A stretch of 64,000 nucleotides of DNA. Source: Naegleria gruberi (Eukaryota). How positions within the stretch are numbered: the first letter of the stretch is position 1; each line of letters opens with the position of its first letter. Position numbers and translations under genes: made by a program. The notes beneath the pieces were generated by a model. It had not been told where the DNA came from and ran no database searches. It was given only the letters and a program-made list of their open reading frames with translations. The stretch lies in the NCBI GenBank assembly GCA_000004985.1, contig GG738865.1, one strand, 5' to 3'. Below are positions 5,834 through 64,000 of the stretch, piece by piece.

Positions 5834-7557
5834 CTACAGAATCAATTCGTGTTGCTGTGGTTGGGATGAGAGAATTTTAAATCTATCACGTTCTCTTTCC
5901 AATTCGAAAATTCTTCGTTGTAATTGTTGCTTCTCAGTTATGGAAGCTTGTTGGATGGAAGACATGCCTGTCTCTGCTTGTAGCAATTGTTCATTCAAAT
6001 CTTCAACTTGTCTCTGGACAGAATAAACCTTTGATCGATAGGCTTCCTTAATTTTCTTTGCTTTGGCAGCATACCTTTTAGCAATCTCTTTAGCAGCCAG
6101 CAGATCTTTCAATAATTTTTCCACCCTAACATTAGAATCTGTGTGTTTGTGTTTCAGCGTATCCATATCTAGTTTAATATCGGCAATGACCTTTAACAAG
6201 TGATTATTCTTATCGAGTTGATAGTCTCGTTCTTCTCTAAATGCCTGTGCTTCAGCTCTTACGCTTTCAGATTCTTTCCTCAGTCTGGCAATTTCATTAG
6301 TGAGTTCTTGAACATCGTGTTGACTTCTCTTTTCCTTTGAGAGTAAATCTTGTTTTAACTCATTCTTTTCAACTTCAAGTTGTAAATACTTTTCAGTTTC
6401 CTTTCTAAGTGCTTCATGAAGTCTCTCGTTTTCCTTAATGTGAATCTCGTAGGATTGTGTTACCAATTCTTGCTTGGCTTGTTGGAGATCTTCCACCCTC
6501 TTGTTCAATTCAGAAACCTTATTTGCCCAAATGTTTCTATCTCTCTCGTATTCTCTTTCTCTTTGAAGTTGATTGGCCTTGTAGGATGTTCGTTCTGAGG
6601 CAAACTGTTTTTCTGTTTCATCCAATTTGCTCTTTGTTGTGGTTAATTCCTTTTCGAGTTTTAAAATTTGATCGTGCATCTTGTCATTACTTCTGGTAAT
6701 TTCTTCAAGTTCTGCTTGAAGTCTTTCACATTTCTTTTGGAGTCTTTCGTGCTGTGTCTCTGCTGTTCTAACTTTGGAGACCAACTCGGCATGTTTCTGA
6801 TTATTCATGAGGTTGGATTGTTCTCTGGATGAAACAGCTTGCGCTTTTTCTTCTCTTACTTCATGTAGTTCGGAAAGTAGTTTTTTGATGCTTATTGACA
6901 TTTCTTCCTTTTCTTCTTCAAGGCGTTTTACTTGGAGAATCTCCTTAGATGTTTTCATCTGAATGTTCTGATCGTTTAATTGCATGATGAGCTCTTGAAC
7001 ACGATCTTCATAGTCACCCTTCATTTCATCAAATCTCTTCTCTGCCATTTTGAGTTTTTGTGTTAATTCATTCTTGGTTAGTTCGTATTCTCTTCTCAGA
7101 TCCGAATACATTTCACGAAATTTATCATTCTCATCGATTTCCCTCTCCAGACGATGTCTCAACTCCAATTCTTCCATTAATTTCATTTTCATTTGTTGAA
7201 GCTCTTGAGTATCCCGATCAAATTGATTTCGTAAGGACTCGAATTCCTTAGTTTTCTTTTCCAATTGATTTTTCCATCTCAAGTGTTGTTCATTGTTTTG
7301 ATTGTACAAATCCAGATATTCTCTTTTTAACTATTATTATTGTTGTGATGATGATAATTTTAATAATTATAATAATAATAAATTAATAATTTGCCAAAGT
7401 CATGATGATGTAAACAACTTCCGTGATGCTGCCTAATACAACTTACATTATCAAAATTTCTTTGGTAGGTATCATTCTCTGTTCTTAATCGCTGAAGTGA
7501 GAGTTGAACATTCCTATCGTCGCCCTCACGTACCGACGTTGAGGTTGTAGAGTGCAT
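5834..7557 (-). CDS. Coiled-coil protein, 2 exons (7557..7447 and 7330..5834; intron 7446..7331, GTAAGT...AATAATAG), about 536 aa, function unknown
   Basis: Long heptad-rich ORF (ELELRHRLEREIDENDKF..., many E/K/L/Q). Upstream ORF MHSTTSTSVREGDDRNVQLSLQRLRTENDTYQRNFDN ends in phase 0 at GTAAGT. An in-frame TAG sits immediately before exon 2, as expected for an acceptor. Confidence 0.65.
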
Positions 7558-7603
7558 TTTTTTAAACTTAACGGCTTAATATTTTTTAATGGGTTACAAT
7601 TTC

Positions 7604-7612
7604 GGCGGGAAG
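7604..7612. promoter_or_regulatory. E2F-like GC element GGCGGGAAG (TTTCGGCGGGAAG), about 50 bp upstream of coiled-coil gene ATG (7557, minus)
   Basis: GC-rich motif in AT-rich spacer. Matches E2F half-site GCGGGAA. Same motif family as at 39657 and 53812. Confidence 0.3.
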
Positions 7613-10634: not shown

Positions 10635-10760
10635 GTACACGTGGTTCAAAAATTTCTATTCCATTCACTATATTTATCGAGAAAGAGTCCTCGGCTTTGG
10701 CCCTATTTTTTCTCAATTAAAAATGCATCGACGATTCCAAAAAGTACACGTGATTCAAAA
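10635..10760. promoter_or_regulatory. Duplicated 17-mer GTACACGTG(G/A)TTCAAAA (E-box/G-box CACGTG) at 10635..10651 and 10744..10760, upstream of gene at 11023
   Basis: 16/17 identical copies 109 bp apart, between tRNA-Gly and the downstream 3-exon gene. Confidence 0.35.
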
Positions 10761-12071: not shown

Positions 12072-12143
12072 CTCCCATGCCGGGAATTGAACCCGGACCT
12101 CCTGGGTGAAAGCCAGGTATCCTAGCCATTGGACTACACGGGA
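12072..12143 (-). tRNA. tRNA-Glu (anticodon TTC)
   Basis: Minus read TCCCGTG-TA-GTCC-AATGGCTA-GGAT-A-CCTGG-CTTTCAC-CCAGG-AGGT-CCGGG-TTCAATT-CCCGG-CATGGGA-G. Typical eukaryotic Glu tRNA. Confidence 0.85.
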
Positions 12144-15965: not shown

Positions 15966-16025
15966 AAACGTGAAACGTGATCACGCTCTTCTGTAAGATA
16001 TTTTATTGACAAACAAAACGTGATC
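15966..16025. promoter_or_regulatory. ACGTG-core repeats (AAACGTGAAACGTGATCACG and AAAACGTGATC) in the 155-bp spacer between the tandem kinase genes
   Basis: Three ACGTGA copies within 60 bp, immediately upstream of the ATG of kinase 12691..15930. Confidence 0.25.
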
Positions 16026-18098: not shown

Positions 18099-18283
18099 TT
18101 TTTTATTCGAAAGTGGCTCTCTGTCACGTTTCGAATACTTCACCACAGGCAATAATCTCTTTAATTCTTTGATCACGTTTCAGATATTTTTAAACCAATT
18201 TGTCCCTCCAATCAACCTTTTTCACAAAGTTTACAAATCTTTAACTTTTCTGATAATTATTACAAAATTAATGGAAAAAAAAA

Positions 18284-24971: not shown

Positions 24972-25366
24972 TCAAGTGTTCTTGTTTCTTTTTTTTTTCT
25001 AATTATTTTCTTGTAATGTGGCCCAATAGTTTTTTAAAGTGAAATGCGAACTTCTAATTGACACTCATCTTTCATCCATTAAAGTCTTCAAGACTTTCAA
25101 ATTGATGAAAGTTTAGGTTCAATCCAATAGATTTTAAAAACAAGTTTGATGGATAATCGGAAATATAATTTTGCAATTTGATGGACAAGGAACTTGGAAA
25201 AGCAGGTTAAAAAAATGAAAAAATGAAAGTGGCAAAGCTTTGATTAATTTCTAGATGGTTTCAAGAGATGAACATGTAAAATTTGAAAATTAGGTAGATT
25301 AGATTAATGGCTTGATATAATGAAAAAGTTAAAACTCAAAGGTTGGTGATTGTGTTAAAAATTTAT

Positions 25367-27928: not shown

Positions 27929-28026
27929 ACCAAGAGATAGTGTTGTTTCGTTTTAGTAAACAAGTACCGTAGGTCTGATTTTGTTTGACAAATTATGTTA
28001 TATTCCTTGGATTAAGGTTATGAATG

Positions 28027-28145
28027 GCTACGGCCATATCACGATGAATGCACCTCATCCCGTCCGATTTGAGAAGTTAAGCATCGTCGAGCCACATCAG
28101 TACTGAGGTTGGAGACAACTTGGGAACCTGTGGTGCTGTAGTCTT
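28027..28145 (+). rRNA. 5S: 5S ribosomal RNA gene (dispersed single copy)
   Basis: GGCTACGGCCATATCACG...GAATGCACC..ATCCCGTCCGATTTGAGAAGTTAAGC...AGTACTGAGGTTGGAGACAACTTGGGAACCTGTGGTGCTGTAGTC. Helix I ends pair. T5 terminator at 28145-28149. Confidence 0.85.
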
Positions 28146-35847: not shown

Positions 35848-36024
35848 TGAAAGTTCTAATGCAATGTTTTAATCAGTGAATTTTCTACATACCGTTGTGG
35901 TAGAATCTTCCATCAGAACACATTCAAAAACTTGTTTGTTGCGTGACGGAACATTTTCAGCTTTTTGAAATATGAACTTGGATCACAAAAATGGATCGTA
36001 CTACCAAGTTTGGAACATTTGCTG

Positions 36025-36037
36025 TTTTGGCGCCAAC
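36025..36037. promoter_or_regulatory. Palindromic E2F-like element TTTTGGCGCCAAC in the shared 420-bp bidirectional promoter of the ABC transporter pair
   Basis: TTGGCGCCAA is a perfect 10-bp palindrome. Matches the high-affinity E2F palindrome TTTSGCGCSAAA. Confidence 0.35.
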
Positions 36038-36299
36038 AATTTTCACTGAATATTCGAGTTCTTGGTAAGCAACTGCTTATCACACAATCTTCTTGTCATA
36101 CGTTGAACGGTAAATAGTTCATCATCAAAGTTTCGAATAAGTTTTCCCAACACAAAGTAACTTTCAAAGAAACTTTCAACAAAAAAATGTCAAACAACAA
36201 CTCTCAAACACTCTTTCGTCTTGGCCTTCTTCCACAGAATTATCCACTCAGTGGAATGCCTTCTGTGTGGTGCCAATTTCAATCTTGATTTTATGTTTC

Positions 36300-39305: not shown

Positions 39306-39656
39306 TATAATGCAAAGATACCATACCACTAGTGTAATGTAATTATTAAACAATTATTATTATTATCTAATTGAGTAAAATCTTGGTTGTAGACTATCAG
39401 AAATAAACAAAATCAAACTGATGCAAATCTTGGCTTTCCAAAATGAGAATATTCATAAATACTTTTCTCTGACTCCCACTTTCCAAAAAAATCACCAATA
39501 GCAACTTTGATAATTGTAAATATCGGTTTGAGTCTTCAATGTCAGACAATTTTTTTCTTCTTCCTCATTATCCTCGGATCAGAATTGTCGTAATTTTTTG
39601 ATTTTCTTTGTGACTATTAAATAACAAACAATAAGCAGATACGTTCATGTAGGTTG

Positions 39657-39678
39657 GCGGGAAAAGTTTGGCGCCAAT
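39657..39678. promoter_or_regulatory. Composite GC element GGCGGGAAAAGTTTGGCGCCAAT (two E2F-like sites plus CCAAT), 40-60 bp upstream of ATG 39718
   Basis: GCGGGAAA and TTTGGCGC are both canonical E2F consensus variants. CCAAT box overlaps. Confidence 0.4.
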
Positions 39679-39717
39679 AATTTACATTTCCATTCATTTT
39701 TAAAACAATTTAAAAAA

Positions 39718-42548
39718 ATGTCTTTTGGGCGCTACAACCAAACCTACCAAGAAGAGGAGGAAGATAGAATTGGAGACGTGGAAGAGGAGGAAGCCGACGA
39801 AGAAGAAGAAGAGGAAGGAGGTTTTGGAAATCCATATGATGATACTTCATTTGAGGATACTAGTCATTCAAAGCAATCCCCTTCATCATCATCACAAAAT
39901 AATGCAAGAAGTGTCTACTCTCCAAGTGCTAGTTATAATAGTATCCCTAATCAGAGTTCAACATCGTTTAATGCCTCATCTTCAACAATGAATGGTTCGT
40001 TATTTACGAGTTCTCACACCAAATTGCCACCAGTCAATGGAGCAACACCAGCATCAACAACACCAACTAATTATCAAACCAATATCGATCTAAGAAATAG
40101 CAATGTTACTAACAAGGAGAATATTAACAATTCTTATGAAGCAACATCGGCTAGGAGTGATCGTTCTACTTACAAGCCATTTACTTATAATCCTCTTCCT
40201 TACCCAACTTCTGCCCACACCCCTTCCACAAATCAACCTCAATCTGTTCCCTACCCTTATGAACCACATGCCCCTCCATCCATTCACTCTGATAGATCTC
40301 TCAAGAGAAAGGAATCATCGGATGAATTATTTGAGGTGATGAATCATCACCACAATGATGTCAACAACACATCAACAGATTACTTTACAAATCGCCCAAG
40401 AAGTGCTGGGAGACCTTCATCTGCCTCTACGCGTCCTTCAAGTGCAGGCTCTACTAGGTCAAAAGTTAATCCCTCTCAATACAAGCTCTCACACATCCCA
40501 ACACCTAAGCAATTTCCAATTGCCTCTTCAAGAAGCACCAATAGTGTTTTAGAGAAGAATACACTCTCTAAAAAACAAGTTGTACAAAATTATTTATCTA
40601 CTGCAAACAAGAGTATGAAAAAGAGAACAATTCCTACCAACTTTTTCAAAGATCCAGAAGGAATGTATATGGATTTGCAAGAATTAAGACAAGAGGTCGC
40701 TATACTAAGAAGAGATAATCAATCACTAAGGACAGCTGCTCAAAAATCAGAAGCTGACAGTACTAGAAAACAAAAGCAAGTGGAGGAGCTACTGAGAGCT
40801 CATGCCCTTGTCGAAACTAAGGGAACAAGATATGAGAATCTTTTCAAGGAAGTCAATGTAAGTACAATATTAGAGACTCGAATTTAACTCGAAAATTATA
40901 GCTTGTGAAGAGCTTGAAATCAAGAATAAGAGAACTTGAAAAGAACCTAAGTGAAAAGGAAAATGAGTTCCAAAGAATTAAATTGGACAGTAGATACACC
41001 AGAGTGAGAGAATTGGAAACTGAATTAAAGGCATACTATACTGAATCAAGAAGACTTCAAAAGGTTGTGGAAGATTTGGAATTGGAAAAGCAGGAACTTG
41101 AAGTGATTGATGAGGAAAATGAAAAATTAAGTCGCCAAAACGTGAAACTAAGAGAACTAATTGTAAAAATGAAACAAGTTCAAGATTATTATAAGGAACA
41201 AAACGAGTCCATTTCTGAAGAGTTGAGATATGTGAGAGACAATAATGGTGCTTCATCTAGGTTATCAGCGCAAGAACATCAAATTGATGACATGTCCAGA
41301 ACGATACATGAACTCAATGAAAGGTTGTCAGAGTATGATCAACAATTGACAGATACAAAGAAAGCAAATGCAGAACTGCAAAGCATTAGTGATGGAATTC
41401 AATTTGATAACAACTCTCTGAGGAAAGAGAACAATGACATGAAAAAAGCAATCGAAGAACAAAAACAAAATTACGAAAGAAAACTCGCAGAAAAAGATAA
41501 TGCTATTACAGAGCTGGGCAAACAGCAGGAATCATATTCACATCTCAGATCGAGTGTGGTGACTGTAGAACAGAGAGTGACAGAGAAGGAGAAGGAATGT
41601 CAATTCCTTACTGCCACACTTAAGGAAAAGACCGATTTGTTAAGTGCCAAGAATCAAGAAATTCTAACACTAAGAAGCAAGATGGAAGGTGTTGAAGAGC
41701 AAAATAATACCCTCATGACCAAATTCAAAGACATGAAAACAATGAATCTCAAATTGTTGGATGAAGTGGCAAATTTACAAAACAAGCTTGCCAATTCAGC
41801 CATGAACACTCCTCCACCAGTGCCAATCCAACCTGTGCATAGCAGTGCTCACGAACAACCAGCCTATGAAGATGTTATTGATCCTGTTGATCTCGTTGAA
41901 TCACCAGAAATTAACTATTGCCCTCCAGAACCAATTGAGGAAGAGGAAGGACTACAACAACCTGAACAACATTCATCAGTCCCGCAAGTGGAACCATCAA
42001 ATGATACTCCAAACAATGTACAAGAGGTTGAAGAAGAAGAGGAACAACAACAAGACGATGACATTGGAGGAAATTACAGTTTTGAGGATGAGACAGAAGA
42101 TCAAGAAGAGTCAATTTACGATGCGGCAGCAACAAAGATTCAGAGATGTGCCAGAAGGTTCTTGGGAAGAAGAAGAAGGCAGAGAATAATATCAGATCGA
42201 GAGCAATTAAGACAAGAACAAGAACTTCAAGCACAACCAGAAGAATCAACGAATTATGAAGAAGAGCAACACCAACCTGTAACTGTTTTGGAAGAGTCCT
42301 ATCAAGAAGAACCGTCATTTGAAGAAGACCACCATGGTGGTGCAACATATGATGAGTTTGGAGGAATGGTTGACCATGACGAGCATGATTATTATGGAAC
42401 TGGTGATTCATTTGAAATGCAAGAAGATCAACACGAACCAATTAACTTTGATGACGATGATAGAAGCGAGGAACACAATTTCAATGATGATAACTTTGAT
42501 GACAATCACTACGATCATCACGATAGCTATGGTGATGATGAGTGGTAA
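39718..42548 (+). CDS. Coiled-coil protein with IQ motif and acidic termini, 2 exons (39718..40857, 40902..42548; intron GTAAGT..TTATAG 44 nt), about 929 aa
   Basis: Phase-0 join ...FKEVN|LVKSLKSRIRELEK. Extended heptad coiled coil. IQ-like AAATKIQRCARRFLGRRRRQRII. Ser-rich N-terminus and Asp/Glu/His-rich C-terminus. Confidence 0.7.
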
Positions 42549-42660: not shown

Positions 42661-44259
42661 TTAACTTTGGTTTTCTTCGTTAGAACATGCATGTTCAGTA
42701 TAACCGCGAGAATACCAATCCTTTCTTGCCTTCTTGTGATCTTCCACAGTTCTGACCTTTCTAACAAATGGATTATATCCATCTGTAGTAATATAGTTCC
42801 ATAAAACTCCAGACCAAGAGTCCAAGTGATACATTTCCTGTACTTCTGATGAGTACTTATCATTTGAGTTGTCACCCTCTCTCTTCATACCAATAACATC
42901 CTCGAAACCATAATATTCAGGAGCAATGTGTCTCAAGAGTGGCAATTTGGTACATGGAATTCTTGGGAAATCGTGATGTTCATTATGATAACCAACATTG
43001 AACATGAACCAGTTAGCAGGTCCATAGTATGAGTATGTTTCTTGTCCAGTCTTAGTCAACCAATGTTCAGAAATAAAGTGACCAGACAATGGATGAAGAC
43101 CCAAACCAAAGAGAGTAGCAATCAAACAATAAACAAGAGCTCTATAACCCCACATCATGACCAGAACTGAATCAAAAGTCAAAGTTACAACAATATTCAA
43201 AATTTCCCACTTGTTTGGAACCTTTGGAGAGACAAGTAATGGTTTGATACCATAAATCAAACCCAAAAAGATAATGTGAAGAATTTTCATGATTGGACCT
43301 CTCACATATCTGCCTTCATACTTGGTTGTGATATCAGCATCCAAACCAGGCACACCCAAATACAAATGATGTTCACTATGATATCTATTCGAAATGAATC
43401 ATCACATTGTATTTTGATGATGATTTCAAAAACAGAGAAAGCCGCCAATAATAACGAAAGTGCGGATTAAATCGTTAATATGTTTTCAAGTGCAAATGAA
43501 ATCAATAAGCGTAATTGATTAGTTGTTGTCCGCAATTTTCGTAATAAGCGTTTGGACAAATGAACCGGTATTTAAGCGCAGGTGTTGTTTTTCATCACCG
43601 CCAATCACAGATTTTTGCAAGTCAAAAGTATAAAGCAATTGAAAAGATAATTAATAATCAAATTGAATTGAGAATGAATAACTTACCTCTTGAAGGTCAT
43701 TGCAGAAGGAATGCCCATTGATAAATTGCAAAAGATTGCAAAGTAATAATTGTGTTCTAACTTTTCAAAACACATCCTAATTAGTAGAAATGAGTCGTTG
43801 GAAAATCATCATCATCATTGCAGAGTAGTAGTATGCATATTCATGAAAATGACCATCATCACACGATTAAAACAAACCAATTATCCAATAAACTTACCCA
43901 TGTGTAATTTCATGAATAGCAACTGTCATTGATTGAACAAAGGCACCACCAATAAGCCAAGCAGTCGGAATCAGCAACCACCAACTTCTATCCTTAACCA
44001 AGTAGCAAATTAAAAAGTGGAGAAGGACGAAAAAGATGCATTGCCACTTTGTTTCTGGATCATAGCCGAACAGTTTTTCAATTTGTGGATACTTCTTTAG
44101 CATTTCATACTTTCTTCTAAGATGAGGTTCTTCCTTGTTTGTCCAGACAAAATCATTTCTATTGAGAAGGTCTGGTTCAATGGTTGAGTAAGCATCCTGC
44201 GATGGAACCTTTTCTATGGCAGGCGTTGAAGGTGTTGATGAGGTTGATGAGGCTCTCAT
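42661..44259 (-). CDS. DEGS: Sphingolipid delta4-desaturase (DEGS/DES1 family), 3 exons (44259..43898, 43776..43687, 43384..42661; introns 121 nt and 302 nt)
   Basis: AIHEITHG|G-MCFEKLEHNYYFAIFCNLSMGIPSAMTFK|RYHSEHHLYLGVPGLDADI... aligns with DEGS1 [41 protein letters not shown]. C-terminal GYHNEHHDFPRIP histidine box. Both donors are GTAAGT. Confidence 0.8.
43385..43686 (-). other. Intron 2 of desaturase gene: longest intron in window (302 nt), relatively GC-rich, carries two CCGCCAAT elements (43441..43449, 43596..43605, plus-strand text) and a GGTGATGA C-box-like motif
   Basis: Boundaries fixed by protein alignment. Other introns in the window are 37-121 nt. Confidence 0.6.
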
Positions 44260-53811: not shown

Positions 53812-53825
53812 TTTTCCCGCCCAAT
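53812..53825. promoter_or_regulatory. TTTTCCCGCCCAAT: E2F-like site (TTTCCCGCC) fused to CCAAT box, 26-39 bp upstream of the dynein heavy chain ATG
   Basis: GC-rich island in AT-rich spacer. Reverse complement of the GGCGGGAAA motif seen at 39657 and 7604. Confidence 0.4.
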
Positions 53826-53850
53826 GGTTGTACAAAATTAATCAAAAAAA

Positions 53851-56800
53851 ATGCCAGAGTTTATTACCACCGATAAACGATTGGATTGGCTCTATGAAAA
53901 AATAGCGGATGCCTTCCATATGGATAAGGAAACAATAGCTTCAGTGGGAAGATCAAAAGAAAATATAGGACTAATACAATCATTCCTTGATGGAAAAGGA
54001 GCAAAGTGTCTCCTTTGGTTCTTCTTCAGTCAGGGAGTGAATGATTTTTCTGATTTTGATGAAACCCTCACATCAAGTTCTTTAAACACCTACTCTAAAT
54101 CACAAACAGTTTTATCGTTCGCAACATCAGGAGAGTCCGATTCCGTAGCTTCACAAAAATCACCTAGAGGAAGTGACGGACCAGCCTTCTTAGTATCAAC
54201 AGATTTTAATGCAAACCCTCTTATTAGTAATGCTATTTGTATTTACTTTGTAAAGGAGGATGAAGCAACACAACTTTCAATGAATAATATAGAAGATATT
54301 GCAATGGGAGTAATATCGGGTAATAAGGGATTGATGAAAGAATTAAAAGATAGATTAGAAACATTATACATTCCTCAACTTTTAAAACAATCGGATTGGG
54401 GAGAACTAAGTAATTCAAGCAATTTAGATTCTAAAGAGGAAATTATGGAATTTTTGGAAAATGTTGACAAGTTTGTGCAGAATGTCAGTGAAGCAAAAAT
54501 TGCTTTGGAATCCAGTATTAGATTGGAAGCTCCAAAGAAGTTCTCAAATTTTGATTCAAAACCAAAATCTTTCCTCAAACAAGCTTTGAACAGGGTTGAT
54601 ATAATATCTTCATTTGAAGAGGCAGTCACAACGTGGATGGGAGACATTGATGCCTTATTGAATGAAGTTACTGCAGTCAGAGAAGAAGACGATGAAAGTG
54701 GTCCTGCTGCAGAGTTAGAATATTGGAAATCGAGAATGGCCAAATTCAACAGTATTACAGACCAATTAAGAAATAAGGTCTGCAAAACAGTTCTAAGTGT
54801 TTTAAAAGCTAAGAAATCGGCAGTGTTAGCTGGGTGGAAAAACATTGATATAAGAATTACAGATGCTGCTAACGAAGCAAAAGACAATGTAAAATACTTG
54901 TATATATTGGAAAAATTCAGTGAACCTCTCTACAAGAGTGATCCAGTTCAAATGATTAACACTCTTCCAGCACTCATTAATGCTATCAAAATGATGCAAA
55001 GGTAAGTTAGCTTTCTTGGAATTCAAATATTAATCTTTTCTAATAACAAATTTCTAAAAAATGTCGCAACACAATTTACCTTCAACAGTATCGCAAGGTA
55101 TTACAACACTTCCGAACGAATGACAGCACTTTTTGTTAAAATAACAAATCAAATGATTATTTGTTGTAAAAAGTACATTGTGAAGGATGGTCGTTTGTGG
55201 GAACAAGACACAGAAAAATTAATAGAAAAATTTAAATCATGCATTGATTTGAATGAAGCCTACCAACACTTTTATAGAAAAACTAAAAGCGAATTACAAA
55301 TGAATCCGTTTGGAAAACAATTTGATTTTAGTGAAAGTGCAATTTTCGGAAAGTTTGACCAATTTTGTTGGAGAATTCAAAAATTAATTGATTTATTTAC
55401 TACATTTAATCAATTTTCATATCTTCAGAAATGCACTATTGAAGGTCTGGATCCAATAATTAAACAATTCATCAAAATAATAACAGTGCTAAAGAGAAAG
55501 AAATATGACTTTTTGGATTATAGAAAATCTGTAAGTAATTAATAATAGCAATTTAATTAGAAATATATTTAAATAATACTAGGTATTTGATACTGATTAT
55601 ATTGAATTCAATAATGATATGACTAAATTGGAATTGGAGTTGGTGACCTTTATTAATAATAGTTTTGCTGAAGCTAGGACAACTAAACACTGTTTGGAAC
55701 TTCTTGAACAATTCAGAAAAGTGCTAAAACAAGACAACTTACAAAGGATTTTGGAGGATAAATTCCGATCGATATTCAGCAACTATTCTAGGGATGTGGA
55801 ACATATTAAAAATGTTTATGAGGAAACCAGCAGAAAACCAAATATTCCAAGAAACGCTCCTCCTGTTGCTGGTAATATTGCGTGGTCCAGACAGCTCATG
55901 AGGAGGTTAGAAGAGCCTATGGACTTATTTAAACAAACTCCTGCAATTTTGGAATATAAGGATTCGAAGAAAACTATCAAGCTTTACAACAAGATTGGAA
56001 AAGCATTACTGAGGTTTGAAGCATTATGGATGGAAAAATTCAATGATGCACTTGAAACTGCTAGAGAAGGTCTCTTGGCTACAGTTTTAGTAGAACAAAA
56101 CAATCAACTATATGTTAATTTTGATGGAGATCTTAAAATGTTAATGACAGAAGTTAAATATCTTCAGCTTATGGATATTGAAATTCCTGAAACAGCAATT
56201 TCTATTTTCAACCAACATGAGAGATTGTTGACTCTTGCTGAAAGACTTAGATTCATGGTCAAGGAATATTATCGAGTTATTTCTCTTCAAGACGATCTGT
56301 ACAAACCAATTTTGAAACCTCTTATTTTATCGTTGGATGAGAAAATCAGTGCTGGGAAATCTGCAATTACTTGGTTATCTGTAAGAATTGATAGATTTAT
56401 TGATGAAGTCATGAAGGCTATCTATTCATTGGAAGATACACTTGAAAAAGTGAACGATATTCTTTCGTATAGATTGAAGGCAAATTGTGATTCTATTATG
56501 AAAACCTTCCTAATTTCCTTCTCCTCGGATGTGAGGTCTATTCAACAATTTTTATCAGACAATGAAAAGTTTGCCAAACAAATGGCTATTGAAATTGATA
56601 TTAAGAATCAAGAAATAGAATCAGCAGCCTCAGACCTTATTGCTATAATTACACACAAATATTCTGAGGAAGAAAAGATGGGAGTAGCTAGAGAGTGTAA
56701 AGTATTCAAGAATCATTTCGAAGAGAGAATGCTTGACTCGGTATCTACTTGCCTTAGAGCATCAGTTAAACATTTGAAAGATAGAATCAGTCAAGACAAG

Positions 56801-59800
56801 AGATACAATGCCAAACCTGTTTTCAATGTTCAATTAGCCTTGTCGATACCTAATATTGTATTGCAACCAAGCTTAGAAGAAATTCAAAAATGTGTTAACA
56901 AGTGTGCCAGAATTATGCTTGAATCCACTCAACACATCTATAGATGGAACCAAGAAAAAGCCAAGGAAAAGAAGAGTATTTTCTCTCAAATTGGTGAAGA
57001 TAAGACTACAATTAAGGGTTTCTTGCAATTGACAGGTGCTATTGCAGGTTTATCAAGCAAACTTAACATATTCATTACTAAATTCCAACAATACGACTTC
57101 CTCTGGAAGCAAGATAGAAATGAAGTAATAACTTCCTTCATTGATGGACAAACAACATTGGATGATAAGAAGATACCACCATCATTGGACGACTTTGAAA
57201 GTAAGATCAAACACTTTTCATTGTTGGAAAAGGAAATTGATGACCTAGAACAATATCACCAAGAAGGATCCCTTTTGGTAGATTTAAAACCAATCAAAAG
57301 TGCTCTTAAAGTTGAAGCTTCCCAATGGAAGTTTGCATACGGTCAAGCACTTAACACAAAGGCAAAAGCTGAAATGGAGGATTTACTTAGCTATATTGAA
57401 GAAACTACAAATAATTTGAAGAGAGATGTTTCTGATATAGAAGGAATTAATGGTGTTATGATTGTTCTCAATCAGTTAAGAGAAAGAGAAAGCACCTTCG
57501 ATTTGGAAATCAAGCCAATTAACGAATCTTATGAAATTTTAAAGTTATATAACATTAAAATTTCTAAAGAAGAACTTGAACAAGTTGAAGATAATGGTAT
57601 TGAATTTAAATGGAAAGCTTTAATTGCACTTTCAAGAGAAGTGATGTCAAAATTCCAAAAGATTGGTCCTGGTTTCAGAAGAGACCTTGAACAAAAGGTT
57701 AAGCAATTCAAGAATGAAGTATCAGATTTTAAAAAACTTTACGAGGAACAAGGACCAATGGAAAAGGGAATTAATCCTAGAGTTGCAAAGGCCAGATTGA
57801 CATCTTTTAAGAGTGCCTTTGACGAAAAGCAAAGAAAATGGAAAACATACACCATGGGTGAACGTCTTTTTAGAATGAAAGAAACTGAATATCCAGAGTT
57901 GGTAAAAATTAGCAAAGAATTAGACTGGCTTTCTGGTCTCTACGATCTTTATACAGAAGTTATTGTTACCGTAAATGGATTTGAAGACATAACATGGAAT
58001 GAATTGGATACAGAGGAAATGACTAATACTCTTAATAGTTTCAATATCAAATGTAAAAATATGCACCCAGCTCTCAGAAAATGGGACGCCTATATTGAAC
58101 TTAAAGATACTATTGAAAACTTCCTCAATACTCTTCCATTATTAGAAAAGTTGAATCAAACATGTGTAACTCAAAGACATTGGAAGCAAATTTCTGAGTT
58201 GTGCAAGAAGACCTTGGACTACAAGAATCCTGAATTTAAAATCAGAGATATTGTCGAAGCCAAGTTGGTAGAACACAAGGATGATATCGAGGAAATTGTG
58301 AATGCAGCCAACAGAGAATTAAACGTAGAGAAAAAGCTCGAAGAAATCAAGGAAGAATGGAAACTTAAAAAGTTTACTTTGGGAGACTTTAAAAATAGAG
58401 GAAAGCTTGTTCTTAAGGATACGCAAGATTTGATGCAGAGTATTGAAGATACTCAATTGGCCCTTTCAACATTATTGGGTGATCTTTATAATGAACCATT
58501 CAAACCAGAAATTCAGCAATGGATGGTAAAGCTTTCAGTCACTCAAAGCGTTGTTGATGATTGGCTTCAAATTCAATCACTCTGGATTTATATGTTCTAT
58601 GTTTTCACAGGAGGTGATATTGGTAGAGAGTTACCACACGTATTTAAAAGATTCCAAAATGTTGATAGGTCATGGGTCAAAATTATGTCTACAGCAGAAT
58701 CAGAACCAAATGTTATCAAACTTTGCTACAATGATGAAATGTTAAGAGATTTACTTCCTCACTTGAAGACACTATTGGAAAAATGTCAAAGAGATCTTTC
58801 AGGTTATTTAGAAAAGAAGAGAATGTTATTCCCAAGATTTTTCTTCCTTTCTGATAAGCAAATTCTAGAAATTTTAGGACAAGGAAGTGATCCTTCATCC
58901 ATTCAAAAGCACTTGCTCAGTATTTTCTCTTCAGTTTCAGAGGTTGAGTTTGATGCCAAGCACAAGAACCAAATTATTGCTCTCAGATCTCCAGAAGGAG
59001 AATATGTACCACTTGTAGAACCTGTTATTTGTGAGGATAACATTGAAGTGTGGTTGAATAGATTAGTAGCAGCAATGCAAGAAACTATTCATGAACTAGC
59101 TAGAAATATGAGTGGAACTCTGTTATCAGATTTGTCTGTTGTTGAGAATAACTCTCTCGGTAGAGATAAACTCACCAAATTTATTGGTGACATTCCTTGT
59201 TCCCAACTTGCATTACTTGGTATTCAATTGTTGTGGACATGGGACAGTGAAATGGCTATTAGAAATTCAAGAGAGAGAAATTCTCTTGCCAATGCCAATA
59301 AGAAATTTACTACAATTTTCAATCACTTGGTTACTTTAACAACCAATCCAAAGTTAACACCTCTCCAAAGAACTAGACTTGAAACACTCATTACAATCCA
59401 TATTCATCAAGTTGAAATCTTCCAAGAACTTGTCAGGAAAAAGATTAAAAATGTCAACGATTTTGAATGGACAAAGAGAACAAGATTCTATTGGAAGCCA
59501 GAGCAAGATAAGTGTGTAATATCAATCACAGATGTAGACTTTGAATATTGTAACGAATATTTGGGTTGCACTGAAAGATTGGTCATTACTCAACTTACAG
59601 ACAGAATTTACATTTCTTGTGCTCAAGCTATGGGAATGTTTCTTGGTGGTGCTCCTGCTGGACCTGCAGGTACAGGAAAAACAGAAACAACCAAGGATAT
59701 GGGTAGAACAATGGGAAAGTATTTCATTACTATCAATTGTTCTGATCAAGGTTCTGTACACTCTATGGGAACTACATTTAAGGGCATTGCTCAAAGTGGT

Positions 59801-62800
59801 GCTTGGTGTGGTTTTGATGAAATCAACAGAGTTAAGTTGGAAGTTTTGAGTGTTGTTGCTGCTCAAATTGCTTGTATTTTTGATGCTATGAGAAACAGAG
59901 CAACAAGATTTACTTTCACTGACGGCTCAGATTTAATTTTAGATCCAACATGTGCTTGCTTTATTACATTCAACCCAGGTTATGCTGGTCGTACGGAGTT
60001 ACCAGAAAATATGAAGGCACTCTTCCGAACTATTGCTGTAGTTCAACCTGACAGAAGAATTATTATGAAAGTTAGATTAGCTGCCTCTGGATTTTCTGAC
60101 AATCAAGGTTTATCCAAGAAGTTCGACATGTTATACAAATTGTGTGAACAACAATTATCCAATCAAAACCATTATGATTTTGGTTTGAGAAATATCTTAT
60201 CCGTTCTGAGAACTTGTGGCGTTTCTCTTAGAGCTGAAACTGAGAAAACTGGTATTGACAATAGATCACCAAGAGAAGAAACCAAAGTCTTAATGAGAGT
60301 CTTACAAGATATGAATAATTCAAAACTAGTAGATGAAGACTCTACTCTATTCAAAGAATTATTGAAAGATTTATTCCCAAATGAGTCTACAGATGAATCT
60401 CCTGACGCAAATATGAATGCAGCCATTGATTCTATCATTGACAAGAATGGCCTGATTAATCACCAACCTTGGAAGCTTAAAATTTTACAATTGTATGAAC
60501 AATACAAGGTAAGACATGGCTTGTGTTGTATGGGACCAAGTGGAAGTGGAAAATCAGCAGCTATTAACATTCTTTGTGAGGCTCTTGGTAAAATTGGAAT
60601 TCAAACAAAGATTAAAAAGATGAATCCAAAGTCTATTACCTCAGAACAAATGTTCGGTACTCTCGATAAGGGAACTAATGATTGGGCTGATGGCGTTTTT
60701 ACTTCCTTATGGAGAGAAACAATGGAAAAGAAGAAGGAATATTCATGGGTATTATTGGATGGTCCAGTTGATACTATCTGGATTGAAAATTTGAACACTG
60801 TTCTTGACGATACTAAATCTTTAACATTAGCTAACGGTGACAGATTGAACATGCCAAAAACTTTAAAGTTGGTATTTGAAGTTGGTAGCTTGGACAATGC
60901 TTCTCCTGCTACTGTCTCAAGAATGGGTATGGTTTACATTGGTTCTTCTATTCTTGGATGGGAGCCTCTTTTCCAATCTTGGATAAAGAAAATCGGCAAA
61001 AGACCTTCTTCTGAGATTGAAAAGTTGAAGTTCCTTTTCAACAAATATGTAAATGATATTTTCCTATTCATTGAAAATGAATGTGCACCATCAATGTCAA
61101 ATGGTAATGCAAACGTTATTTCAACTACTTTGAAGATATTGGATGGTTTGTTCACAAACTTTAACAGAAAAACTTTCCCTGATACTATGATTGAAAGGTT
61201 CTTTATCTTCTCTGTCATTTGGGGTGTAGGAGGTACTTTAGAAACTGCTGATAGAATTAAATTACATACCTTCTTGGAAAAGGAATGTAAGATGAATATT
61301 CCTTCTATGGACTCAAACGATACAATTTATGAGTATACCATAGATGAAAATGGTGATTGGAGAAATTGGAAATTCAATGTGCCTGAATGGACATATCCAA
61401 CAGATTTTGTTCCACTTTTCAATTCCATCTTGATTCCAACTGTGGATAATGTAAGAACAGAATTTTTAATTAATCTTATGGCCAAACAAGAGCACTCTGT
61501 ATTACTTATTGGTTCTAGTGGTACAGCCAAGACTGTTACCATCAAAAAGTATCTTAACGATCTGGATAAGAATAAGTTTAAAAACAAATTTATTTCCTTC
61601 TCTAGTGCTACTACCACTGGTATTGTTCAAAATTCAATCTTCACTTCTCTGGAAAAGAGATTGAGCAATAAGGTATTTGGTCCTCCACTCGGAAGAAAAA
61701 TGTATATTTTCATTGATGATATTAACATGCCAGAAATCAACGAATGGGGTGATCAAATTACAAACGAAATTGTTAGACAAGTTATTGAAGATGGTGGATT
61801 CTACTCTCTTGATTCAAATAATCAATGGTTGAAGATTGTTGACGTACAATTCCTTGCAGCAATGAATCAACCTGGTTTTGGTAAAAATGATATTCCTGAC
61901 AGACTCAAGAGACACTTTGCCATTTTCAATTTGACTGTCCCTTCAACCAAGTCCATCGATCATATCTTTACTACAATTGTTGAAGGTCATTATTGCAAAG
62001 CTAGAAATTTCTTGGATGAAGTTGTTCAATGTGCTTCTACTCTACCAGAGCTCACTAGAAAATTGTGGATCTCAACAAAGGAAAAGATGCTTCCAACTCC
62101 AAGCAAGTTCCACTATGTTTTCAACTTGAGAGATTTGAGTAGAATTTTCCAAGGTTTATTATTGGGTACCAATGAAATTATCAAGGACCATCTCGATTTG
62201 CTTCACTTGTGGAAGCACGAAACTGAAAGAGTTCTTCAAGACAAATTTATTGATGAAGCTGATAGAGAATGGTTCCAAACCACTTCCAAAGGTTTGCTCA
62301 AGGAACATTATAGTGATGATGTATCCAGAGCAATTAAATCCAAGTTGTTTGTTGACTTTTTGAGAAAGGCTGAATACGAAGATGAAAATGTTGGAGGTGA
62401 AGAGTTGGACTATGAAGCCAAGCCAATGAATGATGATCCAAAGGTTTATGAACCAGTTGAAGACTTTGGAATTTTGTTCAATAGATTGGACGAGCTATTA
62501 CTTCACTACAATGAAAAACACAAGAAGGAGCCACTTGATATTGTTCTCTTTGACTTTGCTATTCTTCATATTACAAGAATTTCCAGAATTATTAGAAGTG
62601 AGAGAGGTAACGCACTCTTGGTCGGTGTTGGAGGTAGTGGTAAACAATCATTGACTAAGCTTGCTTCCTTCATTGCAGGATACAAGACATTCAAAATTCA
62701 AGTTACAAAGAATTACCACATTCAAGCTCTATTGGATGACCTTAAGAAATTGTACAAGATTGCTGTGCTTGAATCACCTGTTACTTTTATTTTCACTGAC

Positions 62801-64000
62801 AATGATATCAAGGATGAACAATTTTTGGAATACATTAACATGATGCTTACATCTGGTGATATTCCAGGTTTATTCACAAAAGAAGAAAGAGAAATGATGA
62901 TTGGAGAGTTGCGTCCAATTGCTGTTAAGAGTGATCCTGCATTCTTGGCAACTCCTGAAAATCTTTTCAATTTTTTCATTGATAGAGCGAGAGATAATTT
63001 GCATCTTGTTTTGTGCTTCTCTCCTATTGGTGATCAATTCAGAAATAGAGCAAGAAAATTCCCTGGTATTATTAGTGGATGTACAATCGATTGGTTTGAT
63101 CCATGGCCAAAGGAAGCTCTTAAAGCAACTGCTGACAAGTTTATTGGTGGATATTCATTGGCAACCTCTGAGACCATCAAAAGTGATCTTGTATTATTCA
63201 TGAAGGATTTGCACTATCGTGTCAATGAAATTACAGAGGAATACTTGAACAAATACAGAAGACATACCTATGTTACTCCAAAGACATACCTTTCCTTCTT
63301 GAATAGCTATAGAAAATTATATCAAGACAAGTTGCAACAAATTGAAAGGAAGAGCAACAATATTGCAAAGGGTCTTGAAAAGTTGCAACAAGCTAAAGAA
63401 GATGTCAGAGAGAAGGGTAAAGAACTCGAACAAAAGGAAAGAGATCTTCTAATTGCACAAGCATCTGCACAAGTACTGGTTGATAAAGTTCAAAAAGAAA
63501 CCAAAGCAGCCGAAGAACAAGGAAGAGAAATTCAAAAGAGAAAAGAAAAGCAAGAAAAAGAAGTCAAAGTGGTACAAAAGGAAAGAGATGAAGTTACCAA
63601 AGACTTGAAGAATGCAGAGCCGCATCTTCTTGCTGCCGAAAGAGCTCTTAATAACATTACAAGTGCTTCGTTGAGTAAAATCAAGAAGTATCAAACTCCA
63701 CCTGAGCCAATCATGAGAGTCATGGATACTATTCTTGTTTTGAGAGGTTTGAATATTGAAAAGACTGAAATAGAGGAAAGATCATTAGATCCAAAGAATC
63801 CAAGAAAGATTTTGAAACCTTCATGGAAGTATGCAAAGGAAATGATGAACAATATTAACTTTATGCAAAGCTTACTGAAGTTTGATAAGGATTCAATCTC
63901 TGATGAGCAGGTAGAATTAGTAGCACCATACATGGATGATCCAACACTTACAGTTGACAATGTCAATAATTCATCTGAAGCTGCTGCTAGTTTATGGGAA
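53851..64000 (+). CDS. Axonemal-type dynein heavy chain, partial (N-terminal tail, linker, AAA1-AAA4, start of stalk); at least 3 exons (53851..55001, 55089..55530, 55583..>64000); continues beyond window end
   Basis: N-terminal DHC_N1-type tail (PPVAGNIAWSRQLMRRLEEPM). AAA1 P-loop GGAPAGPAGTGKTETTKDMG (axonemal; cytoplasmic DHC has GGSPFGPAGTGKTESVKAL). AAA2 MGPSGSGKS, AAA3 LLIGSSGTAKT, AAA4 LLVGVGGSGKQS. Frame is open to 64000 (…NVNNSSEAAASLWE). Introns GTAAGT..CAACAG (87 nt) and GTAAGT..ACTAG (52 nt). Confidence 0.9.

What the first reader, a model, noticed from the sequence alone, without database searches (positions are those of the whole stretch)
39657..39678. Recurrent GC-rich E2F-like/CCAAT promoter module near ATGs of dynein heavy chain, two coiled-coil genes and the ABC pair: candidate co-regulated (cell-cycle or flagellar) regulon
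GC-rich 9-14-mers of one family stand out in AT-rich spacers. GGCGGGAAAAGTTTGGCGCCAAT lies 40-60 bp upstream of the coiled-coil/IQ gene. TTTTCCCGCCCAAT (53812..53825) lies 26-39 bp upstream of the axonemal dynein HC. TTTCGGCGGGAAG (7601..7612) lies about 50 bp upstream of the other coiled-coil gene. Palindromic TTTTGGCGCCAAC (36025..36037) sits in the ABC-pair bidirectional promoter. GGCCCAAT (25020..25027) sits about 50 bp upstream of the F-box/LRR gene. All fit E2F consensus variants (TTTSSCGC, GCGGGAAA) coupled to a CCAAT box. In animals this arrangement marks cell-cycle genes, and E2F4/5 also drive multiciliogenesis. Sharing between an axonemal dynein and two coiled-coil proteins suggests a flagellar or basal-body regulon driven by an E2F/DP-like factor, not described for protists of this kind.
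Basis: partly seen in the sequence, partly recalled or inferred. Interest (0 to 1): 0.6.

Follow-up and report, generated by a model that had tools for sequence, protein, structure and literature searches.

The report
Conserved E2F-type promoter sites in Naegleria
Three genes in this stretch of the amoeboflagellate Naegleria gruberi (a flagellar outer-arm dynein motor and two coiled-coil proteins) carry, just upstream of their starts, binding sites of the kind recognised by the cell-cycle factor E2F; related species keep these sites, so they are probably real switches, but whether they serve flagellum building or cell division is not settled.

Summary
The window is Naegleria gruberi NEG-M. The GC-rich motifs are at the stated coordinates (within 1 base). 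Three of the five promoters hold up: coiled-coil/IQ gene B (39654-39678, two sites), outer-arm dynein heavy chain (53812-53825) and coiled-coil gene A, NAEGRDRAFT_48696 (7600-7612). TTSSCGSS occurs 14 times against 2.1 expected. Two hits are tRNA T-arms. Three of 21 promoters carry a site against 0.41 expected (P=0.005).

The same genes carry an E2F-consensus site in 6 of 8 orthologous promoters (N. fowleri, N. lovaniensis, Willaertia magna, two metagenome relatives). Control neighbour genes carry none. Orthologous sites swap TTCCCGCC for TTTGGCGCC, as the consensus TTTSSCGC allows.

N. gruberi encodes E2F, DP, DEL and RB. Its E2F recognition helix is identical to human E2F4.

The "CCAAT box" is not conserved and is best read as the A-rich half of the E2F palindrome. 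The ABC site probably lies in an exon and is absent from the N. fowleri orthologue. The LRR site has no E2F core.

Whether this is a flagellar or a cell-cycle regulon is open: only one gene is clearly flagellar, and sites also sit upstream of APC3, a gamma-tubulin complex protein and a kinesin in relatives.

The parts
39654..39665 (.). Distal E2F-like site TTGGCGGGAAAA upstream of gene B (reads TTTTCCCGCCAA on the other strand)
   Evidence: Matches TTSSCGSS on both strands. Not visibly conserved in N. fowleri or N. lovaniensis.
39667..39678 (.). Proximal palindromic E2F-like site TTTGGCGCCAAT, 40-51 bp upstream of the gene B ATG
   Evidence: Aligned block CGCCAAWA(A)TTAC is conserved as ATCCCGCCAAAAATTTACA in N. 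fowleri and GCCCGCCAAAAGTTACG in N. lovaniensis.
39679..39686 (+). Conserved flank AATTTACA directly 3' of the proximal site. Inferred to be a start-site or initiator-like element.
   Evidence: Conserved in three Naegleria gene B promoters. The same composite GGCGCCAATCATTTACAA lies upstream of a kinesin gene in L012. Its function is inferred, not shown.
39718..42548 (+). Gene B: 928-aa coiled-coil protein with one IQ motif. Exons 39718-40857 and 40902-42548, separated by a 44-nt intron.
   Evidence: Orthologues in N. fowleri, N. lovaniensis and Willaertia, with weaker homologues beyond them. Invariant block RVRELETELKAYYTESRRLQ. No Pfam or PDB family above threshold.
53812..53825 (+). E2F-like site TTTTCCCGCCCAAT, 26-39 bp upstream of the dynein ATG
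   Evidence: Orthologous promoters carry TTTCCCGCG (L003/L004) and TTGCCGCGC (L005/L006), each the only TTSSCGSS match in its locus. L001 carries the variant AAACCGCGCAAT.
53830..53835 (+). GTACAA about 20 bp upstream of the dynein ATG. Candidate start-site element.
   Evidence: GTAC is invariant in all four aligned dynein promoters. Function inferred.
53851..64000 (+). Outer-arm axonemal dynein heavy chain (DNAH5 / Chlamydomonas gamma type). The 5' part has short introns, and the gene runs off the window.
   Evidence: Pfam DHC_N1. Best PDB matches are DNAH5 (8j07) and Chlamydomonas outer-arm gamma (7kzm_C). Intron shown.
7600..7612 (-). E2F-like site CTTCCCGCCGAAA (gene orientation), 43-55 bp upstream of the gene A ATG
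   Evidence: Orthologous promoters carry TTTGGCGCCTAAATTGTA (N. fowleri, -84) and ATTCCCGCTCAAAA (Willaertia, -47).
5834..7557 (-). Gene A = NAEGRDRAFT_48696: 535-aa all-coiled-coil protein. Exon 1 7557-7447, exon 2 7330-5834.
   Evidence: The model equals the NCBI protein at 100% identity. Homologues were found only in Naegleria and Willaertia. No Pfam or PDB hit.
36025..36037 (.). TTTTGGCGCCAAC: fits the E2F consensus, but promoter status is doubtful
   Evidence: Probably codes AVLAPT in exon 1 of ABC gene 2 (ATG 35992, donor at 36068). The N. fowleri ABC orthologue has no site near its start.

Best explanation
The motifs upstream of gene B, gene A and the outer-arm dynein gene are most likely genuine binding sites for the Naegleria E2F-DP heterodimer, and possibly for the E2F7/8-like DEL protein. 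Each lies a few bases upstream of a short conserved T(T/G)TAC(A) element and 25-65 bp upstream of the ATG. That places it at or just upstream of the transcription start, as in TATA-less E2F promoters of animals and plants.

Inferred mechanism: E2F-DP binds TTTSSCGC(S)AAA, and its activity is gated by the RB pocket protein. The genes are therefore switched as a set when the cell changes proliferative state.

Shown: consensus match, promoter position, enrichment, gene-specific conservation across species, and presence of the cognate factors.

Inferred: actual binding, the sign of regulation, and which programme (mitosis or amoeba-to-flagellate differentiation) uses the sites. The gene set seen so far is the outer-arm dynein, a gamma-tubulin complex protein, a kinesin, APC3 and two coiled-coil proteins. 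It leans towards the microtubule system, which Naegleria builds only in mitosis and in flagellates.
For: 1. Enrichment. TTSSCGSS 14 against 2.1 expected. Three of 21 promoters against 0.41 expected, P=0.005, and six matches in 4.5% of the sequence.

2. Gene-specific conservation. Among 71 promoters in 9 loci, a TTSSCGS match within 150 bp of the ATG occurs at gene A 3/3, gene B 3/4 and the dynein 3/4. Control orthologue sets all score 0: ValRS, desaturase, filamin, Exo_endo_phos, COPI_assoc, UQ_con, XG_FTase. Orthologues of site-bearing genes score 6/8 against 0/10 for controls, Fisher P=0.0015.

3. Consensus behaviour. Orthologous sites change within the E2F consensus while flanks diverge: TTCCCGCC in N. 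gruberi, TTTGGCGCC in N. fowleri, TTCCCGCT in Willaertia.

4. Cognate factors. N. gruberi E2F, DP, DEL and RB sequences are in the supplement of PMC4862756. The E2F scores on Pfam E2F_TDP and E2F_CC-MB. Its recognition region [24 protein letters not shown] matches the human E2F4 DNA-binding domain of 1CF7 residue for residue.

5. Other genes. The same motif lies -33 of N. fowleri APC3, -36 of an N. lovaniensis gamma-tubulin complex protein, and about -110 of a kinesin in L012.

6. A distant relative. GGCGCC occurs only 11 times in 278 kb, yet sits in the centre of the 154-bp spacer shared by the dynein and the gene B homologue in L012.
Against: - There are no binding or expression data for these genes.
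- The sample is small: 64 kb plus about 200 kb from relatives.
- Transcription starts are unknown, so promoter position rests on distance to the ATG.
- One dynein orthologue (L001) has only a degenerate version, AAACCGCGCAAT. Willaertia gene B has no site within 270 bp of the annotated start.
- The L012 spacer site has one mismatch to TTSSCGS.
- The motif also occurs in coding sequence by chance: 4373, 34415, 38473, and a cluster inside a Willaertia MCM coding region.
- A classical mitotic gene, Mad3/BUB1 of N. fowleri, has no site.
- N. fowleri and N. lovaniensis are close relatives, so their gene B sites are not independent.
Confidence: 0.62

Rival explanations
1. One reading: the sites define a flagellar and basal-body regulon. 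The single E2F4/5-like factor of Naegleria would switch on axonemal and centriolar genes during the amoeba-to-flagellate differentiation.
For: - The outer-arm dynein gene keeps the site in N. gruberi, L003 and L005, which is only 44% identical at the dynein N-terminus.
- In L012 the gene B homologue and this same dynein type share a 154-bp divergent promoter with a GGCGCC core.
- Three of four outer-arm dyneins are differentiation-specific in N. gruberi (PMC10802493).
- Naegleria lacks RFX, FOXJ1 and XAP5, and the factors for its cilia genes are unknown (PMC12183034).
- The CC-MB domain of NgruE2F scores higher against E2F4 and E2F5 than against E2F1.
Against: - Only one clearly flagellar gene could be examined.
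- Genes A and B have no demonstrated flagellar role.
- The motif also precedes APC3/Cdc27, a mitotic gene.
- Multicilin and GEMC1, which convert E2F4/5 into a ciliogenic activator in vertebrates, are vertebrate proteins (own knowledge).
- No other axonemal gene promoters were reachable with the tools.
Confidence: 0.2
2. Ordinary cell-cycle E2F targets. The sites tie genes A and B, and APC3 and GCP in relatives, to S or M phase. The dynein site is a by-product, for example repression of flagellar genes in cycling amoebae.
For: - E2F-DP-RB is ancestral and present.
- Sites lie at APC3 and GCP.
- Coiled-coil proteins are typical spindle and kinetochore components (own knowledge).
- Some axonemal genes are also up in Naegleria mitosis (PMC10802493).
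Against: - A site held for this long upstream of a purely axonemal motor is hard to call incidental.
- No DNA-replication gene promoter could be examined.
- Mad3/BUB1 lacks a site.
Confidence: 0.25
3. The motif is bound by a different GC-box factor, such as an Sp/KLF-like zinc finger, or is a generic GC-rich core-promoter element. It is not an E2F site.
For: - CCCGCC, present in three sites, is also the core of the Sp1 GC box (own knowledge).
- The sites sit at a roughly fixed short distance from a T(T/G)TAC element and the ATG, as a core-promoter element would.
Against: - Orthologous positions interchange TTCCCGCC with TTTGGCGCC and carry T-runs and A-runs on the flanks. This fits TTTSSCGCSAAA but not GGGCGG.
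- Only about 5% of control promoters have the motif, so it is not a general core element.
Confidence: 0.1
4. Composite E2F plus CCAAT (NF-Y) module, as in animal cell-cycle promoters.
For: - CCAAT follows the GC core in two N. gruberi sites (39674-39678, 53821-53825), in the L012 kinesin site and in the L001 dynein variant CGCGCAAT.
- L005 has TTGGCCAAT about 40 bp upstream of its E2F-like site.
Against: - SSCCAAT and SCSCCAAT are not enriched.
- None of the orthologous sites of genes A or B keeps CCAAT. They read CCAAAA, CCTAAA, CTCAAA and CCGAAA, and L003 reads GCGATT.
- What is kept is an A-rich half-site.
Confidence: 0.04
5. Chance: GC-rich oligomers in AT-rich spacers with no function.
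For: - The window-only sample is small.
- Several matches lie in coding sequence or in tRNA genes.
Against: Shuffle tests and gene-specific conservation across four or five lineages with diverged flanks (Fisher P=0.0015).
Confidence: 0.04

Closest known systems
E2F/DP binding sites (TTTSSCGC, palindromic form TTTSGCGCSAAA) in TATA-less cell-cycle promoters of animals and plants
   Same: - Same consensus, including the S/S degeneracy seen between orthologues.
- Works in either orientation.
- One or two sites close to the start site.
- Cognate E2F, DP, DEL and RB are encoded, and the E2F recognition helix is identical to human E2F4.
   Different: - The organism is a heterolobosean amoeboflagellate for which I found no published promoter elements.
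- The target set seen here contains an axonemal outer-arm dynein and lineage-restricted coiled-coil proteins, not replication genes.
- Binding is untested.
E2F4/5-DP1-Multicilin (MCIDAS/GEMC1) programme of vertebrate multiciliated cells
   Same: - An E2F4/5-type factor is linked to genes for centriole and cilium assembly in non-dividing cells (PMC12183034).
- Naegleria also builds basal bodies de novo after leaving the cycle.
   Different: - Vertebrate E2F4/5 acts mainly on centriole-biogenesis genes and upstream regulators, with RFX and FOXJ1 driving axonemal genes. Naegleria lacks RFX and FOXJ1.
- No geminin-family co-activator was looked for here.
- The link rests on one dynein gene.
X-box/RFX and other ciliary cis-elements (Chlamydomonas tub box, XAP5 targets)
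   Same: A short promoter-proximal element shared by ciliary genes and conserved between species.
   Different: - A different sequence and a different factor family.
- Those elements are shown to mark many ciliary genes. Here, membership of a ciliary regulon is unproven.
DREAM/MuvB-type promoters (E2F/CDE with Myb or CHR elements)
   Same: The gene A promoter has an E2F-like site plus a conserved CCGTTA (Myb-type core) 30-35 bp downstream, in both N. gruberi and N. fowleri.
   Different: - Seen in one gene only, and not kept in Willaertia.
- No CHR (TTTGAA) spacing was tested.
- MuvB and Myb components were not examined.

Membership tests
E2F/DP binding site | Sequence matches TTTSSCGC (or the palindrome TTTSGCGCSAAA) | tested here: met
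   39654-39665, 39667-39678, 53812-53825 and 7600-7612 all match TTSSCGSS. Orthologous sites also match.
E2F/DP binding site | Located in the promoter, close to the transcription start | tested here: inconclusive
   The sites lie 25-65 bp upstream of start codons in N. gruberi and 33-124 bp in relatives. No start-site or RNA data were available.
E2F/DP binding site | The genome encodes E2F and DP with conserved DNA-contacting RRXYD helices | tested here: met
   NgruE2F, NgruDP, NgruDEL and NgruRB are in the PMC4862756 supplement. Pfam E2F_TDP E=1.3e-28. Alignment to the 1CF7 E2F4 DNA-binding domain shows an identical [22 protein letters not shown].
E2F/DP binding site | More frequent in promoters than chance, and kept under selection | tested here: met
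   Shuffle tests. 6/8 orthologous promoters against 0/10 controls.
E2F/DP binding site | Physically bound by E2F-DP, and mutation alters expression | not testable with these tools
   Needs EMSA, DAP-seq or ChIP, and reporter or genome editing in Naegleria.
E2F + CCAAT (NF-Y) composite cell-cycle module | A CCAAT pentamer conserved next to the E2F site | tested here: not met
   CCAAT is absent from all orthologous gene A and gene B sites. GC-prefixed CCAAT is not enriched.
Flagellar (ciliary) gene regulon | The element is shared by many axonemal and basal-body genes and enriched in them against other genes | not testable with these tools
   Only one axonemal gene was available. The N. gruberi genome is not in the gene-position index. 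A metagenome scan returned only assorted eukaryote dyneins.
Flagellar (ciliary) gene regulon | Site-bearing genes are co-induced during flagellum formation | not tested
   The gene-level tables of the RNA-seq and microarray studies are not held. The text says only that 3 of 4 outer-arm dyneins are differentiation-specific.

The most novel reading that the evidence does not exclude
The single E2F4/5-like E2F of Naegleria, with DP and RB, is the missing transcription factor that switches on axonemal and microtubule-organising genes during the amoeba-to-flagellate transformation. If so, the E2F4/5-ciliogenesis link known from vertebrate multiciliated cells reflects a much older connection between leaving the cell cycle and building centrioles and flagella. 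A wider form of the idea: E2F gates the whole microtubule gene set, which Naegleria expresses only in mitosis and in flagellates.
Probability: 0.2. Interest if true: 0.8.

Novelty: new member of a known kind. Interest (0 to 1): 0.5.

Why it matters
Naegleria is the classic system for de novo basal-body and flagellum assembly. Hundreds of genes are induced within an hour, yet it lacks RFX, FOXJ1 and XAP5, and a 2025 review states that the responsible factors are unknown.

A conserved E2F-type site in front of an outer-arm dynein gene is a concrete candidate. It can be tested with existing genomes and RNA-seq data. It would also be, as far as I could find, the first cis-regulatory element described for Heterolobosea.

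If the sites prove to be ordinary cell-cycle elements, the result is still useful but modest. It would extend the ancestral E2F-RB circuit, with its DNA code unchanged, to another deep eukaryotic branch.

Tried and rejected
1. CCAAT/NF-Y box: rejected.

2. ABC-pair "bidirectional promoter" site. A splice model puts it in exon 1, and the N. fowleri orthologue has no site.

3. LRR-gene GGCCCAAT has no CGC core and is dropped.

4. Matches at 12079 and 25374 are tRNA T-arms.

5. A cluster of five matches in Willaertia looked like an MCM promoter but is MCM coding sequence.

6. Function of genes A and B. Pfam, PDB sequence search and a profile of gene B homologues gave nothing above threshold. The only hints are a weak CCDC89 label and an IQ motif.

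7. Official N. gruberi gene coordinates and further N. gruberi loci.

8. Gene-level expression. Fritz-Laylin and Cande 2010 and Kennard 2025 are not held, and the preprint has no supplements held. A search for the gene id found only chance number matches.

9. A metagenome scan with the dynein AAA1 region, meant to reach paralogous dynein promoters, returned only assorted eukaryote dyneins.

10. A codon-usage coding-potential map was too noisy to use.

11. The N. gruberi-specific desaturase intron that holds two CCGCCAAT copies is not a repeat family.

Full report
**Source and gene content**

The window is from Naegleria gruberi NEG-M. Several single-exon proteins are exact matches to NCBI entries EFC45028-EFC45041 on an 820-kb scaffold.

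It is AT-rich, about 34% G+C. Spacers and introns are short, and start codons usually follow an A-run. It also carries six tRNA genes and a 5S rRNA gene.

The genes relevant here:
- Gene B, 39718-42548 on the plus strand: a 928-aa coiled-coil protein with one IQ motif.
- Gene A, 7557-5834 on the minus strand: NAEGRDRAFT_48696, a 535-aa coiled-coil protein. My splice model equals the NCBI protein.
- A dynein heavy chain starting at 53851. It is the outer-arm DNAH5 / Chlamydomonas-gamma type.

**Checking the observation**

All five quoted strings are present at, or within one base of, the coordinates given.

The E2F-like core is over-represented. TTSSCGSS gives 14 matches against 2.1 expected, and none of 100 shuffles reaches 14. 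Two matches are the T-arms of tRNA-Glu and tRNA-Asp.

I defined 150-bp zones upstream of 21 trusted start codons, which cover 4.5% of the window.
- These zones hold 6 of the 16 non-tRNA 7-mer matches.
- Three of 21 promoters carry a match against 0.41 expected (P=0.005).
- The other matches lie in coding sequence (4373, 34415, 38473 and others), at the ABC site, or in an intron.

Two of the five claimed members do not hold up.
- The site at 36025-36037 most likely encodes AVLAPT in a first exon of the plus-strand ABC gene (ATG 35992, GTAAGC donor at 36068, acceptor restoring the long reading frame). The single N. fowleri ABC orthologue has no such site near its start.
- GGCCCAAT at 25020 has no CGC core.

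GC-prefixed CCAAT is not enriched.

**Conservation in related species**

Protein searches gave orthologues in N. fowleri, N. lovaniensis, Willaertia magna and several metagenome or unnamed assemblies. I fetched their loci.

Gene A:
- N. gruberi has CTTCCCGCCGAAATTGTAA at -54.
- N. fowleri has GTTTGGCGCCTAAATTGTA at -84.
- Willaertia has ATTCCCGCTCAAAAATAC at -47.

Gene B:
- The proximal N. gruberi site TTTGGCGCCAATAATTTACA aligns with ATCCCGCCAAAAATTTACA in N. fowleri and GCCCGCCAAAAGTTACG in N. lovaniensis.
- Willaertia has nothing within 270 bp of the annotated start.

Dynein:
- TTTTCCCGCCCAAT in N. gruberi.
- CTTTCCCGCGATT in L003/L004, which are 81% identical in protein.
- GTTGCCGCGCTT in L005/L006, which are 44% identical. 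In L003 and in L005 this is the only TTSSCGSS match in 12 kb and 22 kb respectively.
- L001/L002 (84% identical) have the degenerate AAACCGCGCAAT.

Across 71 promoters, the motif occurs at these three gene families in 9 of 11 cases. It occurs at only three other promoters (N. fowleri APC3, an N. lovaniensis gamma-tubulin complex protein, and Willaertia WS_DGAT), plus two divergent partners that share a spacer with a site-bearing gene. Seven control orthologue sets have none.

Orthologues of site-bearing genes score 6/8 against 0/10 for controls, Fisher P=0.0015. Flanking spacer sequence is largely unalignable, so these are footprints rather than undiverged DNA.

**What the element is**

The variation between orthologous sites (TTCCCGCC, TTTGGCGCC, TTCCCGCT, CCCGCCAAAA) is exactly the degeneracy of the E2F consensus TTTSSCGC and of its palindromic form TTTSGCGCSAAA. 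It is not the degeneracy of an Sp1-type GC box.

The "CCAAT" of two N. gruberi sites is replaced by CCAAAA, CCTAAA, CTCAAA or CCGAAA in the orthologous gene A and gene B sites. It is therefore best read as the A-rich half-site and not as an NF-Y box.

The supplement of Medina et al. 2016 (PMC4862756) lists one E2F, one DP, one DEL (E2F7/8-type) and one RB for N. gruberi.
- The E2F scores on Pfam E2F_TDP and E2F_CC-MB.
- Its recognition region is identical to the human E2F4 DNA-binding domain crystallised on DNA in 1CF7.
- Its CC-MB domain scores higher against E2F4 and E2F5 than against E2F1.

Each site is followed within 3-10 bp by a short conserved element: TTGTA, TTTACA or GTACA. I take this, by inference only, to mark the start site.

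**Which programme?**

This remains open.

For a flagellar reading:
- The dynein is purely axonemal and keeps its site in lineages as distant as L005.
- In L012, a distant relative, the gene B homologue and the same dynein type are divergent neighbours. They share a 154-bp spacer with TTTCTGGCGCCTGAA in its centre, and GGCGCC occurs only 11 times in 278 kb of all sequence held.
- Three of four outer-arm dyneins are differentiation-specific in N. gruberi.
- The factors for cilia genes in Naegleria are unknown, because RFX, FOXJ1 and XAP5 are absent.

For a cell-cycle reading:
- Sites sit upstream of APC3/Cdc27 and a gamma-tubulin complex protein.
- E2F-RB is an ancestral G1/S module.

A reading that covers both is that the sites mark genes of the microtubule system: dynein, GCP, a kinesin-1-like gene in L012 about 110 bp downstream of GGCCGCCAAT-type sequence GGCGCCAATCATTTACAA, APC3, and the coiled-coil proteins. 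Naegleria uses this system only in mitosis and in flagellates. That grouping is post hoc.

Genes A and B gave no family assignment. Gene A has homologues only in Naegleria and Willaertia. Gene B has an invariant block RVRELETELKAYYTESRRLQ shared with homologues as far away as Andalucia.

**Novelty**

Full-text searches found no paper that connects E2F motifs with Naegleria promoters or flagellar genes.

The best-supported statement, E2F-type sites in a heterolobosean, is a new member of a well-known kind. The more novel statement, E2F as a driver of flagellar gene induction, is not excluded. I rate it at about 0.2.

**Limits**

- There are no binding, start-site or gene-level expression data.
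- Only one axonemal gene could be examined.
- The N. gruberi genome could not be scanned.
- The metagenome scan did not give paralogous dynein promoters from the right organisms.

Noticed in passing
L012 9063-9218 (with window 39718 and 53851): In a distant relative (JGI contig Ga0606064_0211), the gene B homologue and the DNAH5-type outer-arm dynein are divergent neighbours with a 154-bp shared spacer. In N. gruberi the two genes lie 11-14 kb apart in the same window. This suggests an old linkage or co-regulation of the two genes.
   Followed up: partly
L012 19726-19743 (minus strand): GGCGCCAATCATTTACAA lies about 110 bp upstream of a kinesin-1-like gene. It is almost the same composite as window 39670-39687, GGCGCCAATAATTTACAT. 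This hints at a longer two-part element: an E2F-like site followed by ATTTACA.
   Followed up: partly
window 15973-15982, 16016-16025, 18171-18180: Three exact copies of GATCACGTTT, all in the spacers upstream of the two tandem PB1-kinase-TPR paralogues and the divergent 252-aa gene. ACACGTG also occurs twice near 10650-10760. This is a second candidate promoter element (CACGT core), unrelated to the E2F-like one.
   Followed up: partly
window 43388-43684: The sphingolipid delta-4 desaturase gene (42661-44259, minus strand) has a 297-nt intron that is absent from the N. fowleri and Willaertia orthologues. It holds both CCGCCAAT copies found in the whole window (43442, 43598). It is not a repeat family, and its meaning is unknown.
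   Followed up: partly
window 7569-7574 (minus strand); L007 about 9948-9953: CCGTTA (Myb-type core) is conserved between the N. gruberi and N. fowleri gene A promoters, 30-35 bp downstream of the E2F-like site. It is not kept in Willaertia.
   Followed up: no
window 28026-28144; tRNAs at 768, 1936, 10489, 12071, 25367, 31172: A solitary 5S rRNA gene and six dispersed tRNA genes lie between protein-coding genes. The T-arms of tRNA-Glu and tRNA-Asp (GCCGGGAATTGAACCCGG) mimic the E2F-like pattern and inflate motif counts.
   Followed up: yes
window 40858-40901: Gene B has a very short 44-nt intron (GTAAGT...TATAG). The exact 928-aa spliced product is not in the protein collection, so the public gene model probably differs.
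   Followed up: partly
window 35992-36152: The plus-strand ABC transporter gene seems to need a short upstream exon (ATG 35992 to 36067) and an intron of about 85 nt to reach the long reading frame. That frame has no in-frame ATG before 36303. An A-rich ATG at 36187 is out of frame.
   Followed up: partly
L003 2480-2524: In one Naegleria-like metagenome contig, the ValRS and dynein start codons are only 45 bp apart and divergent. The E2F-like site lies between them, so the whole bidirectional promoter and both 5' leaders fit in 45 bp.
   Followed up: no
gene B family (alignment A4): An invariant protein block K.D.R.TRVRELETELKAYYTESRRLQ is shared by Naegleria, Willaertia, an Andalucia protein and metagenome homologues. 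It defines an unnamed conserved coiled-coil family.
   Followed up: partly
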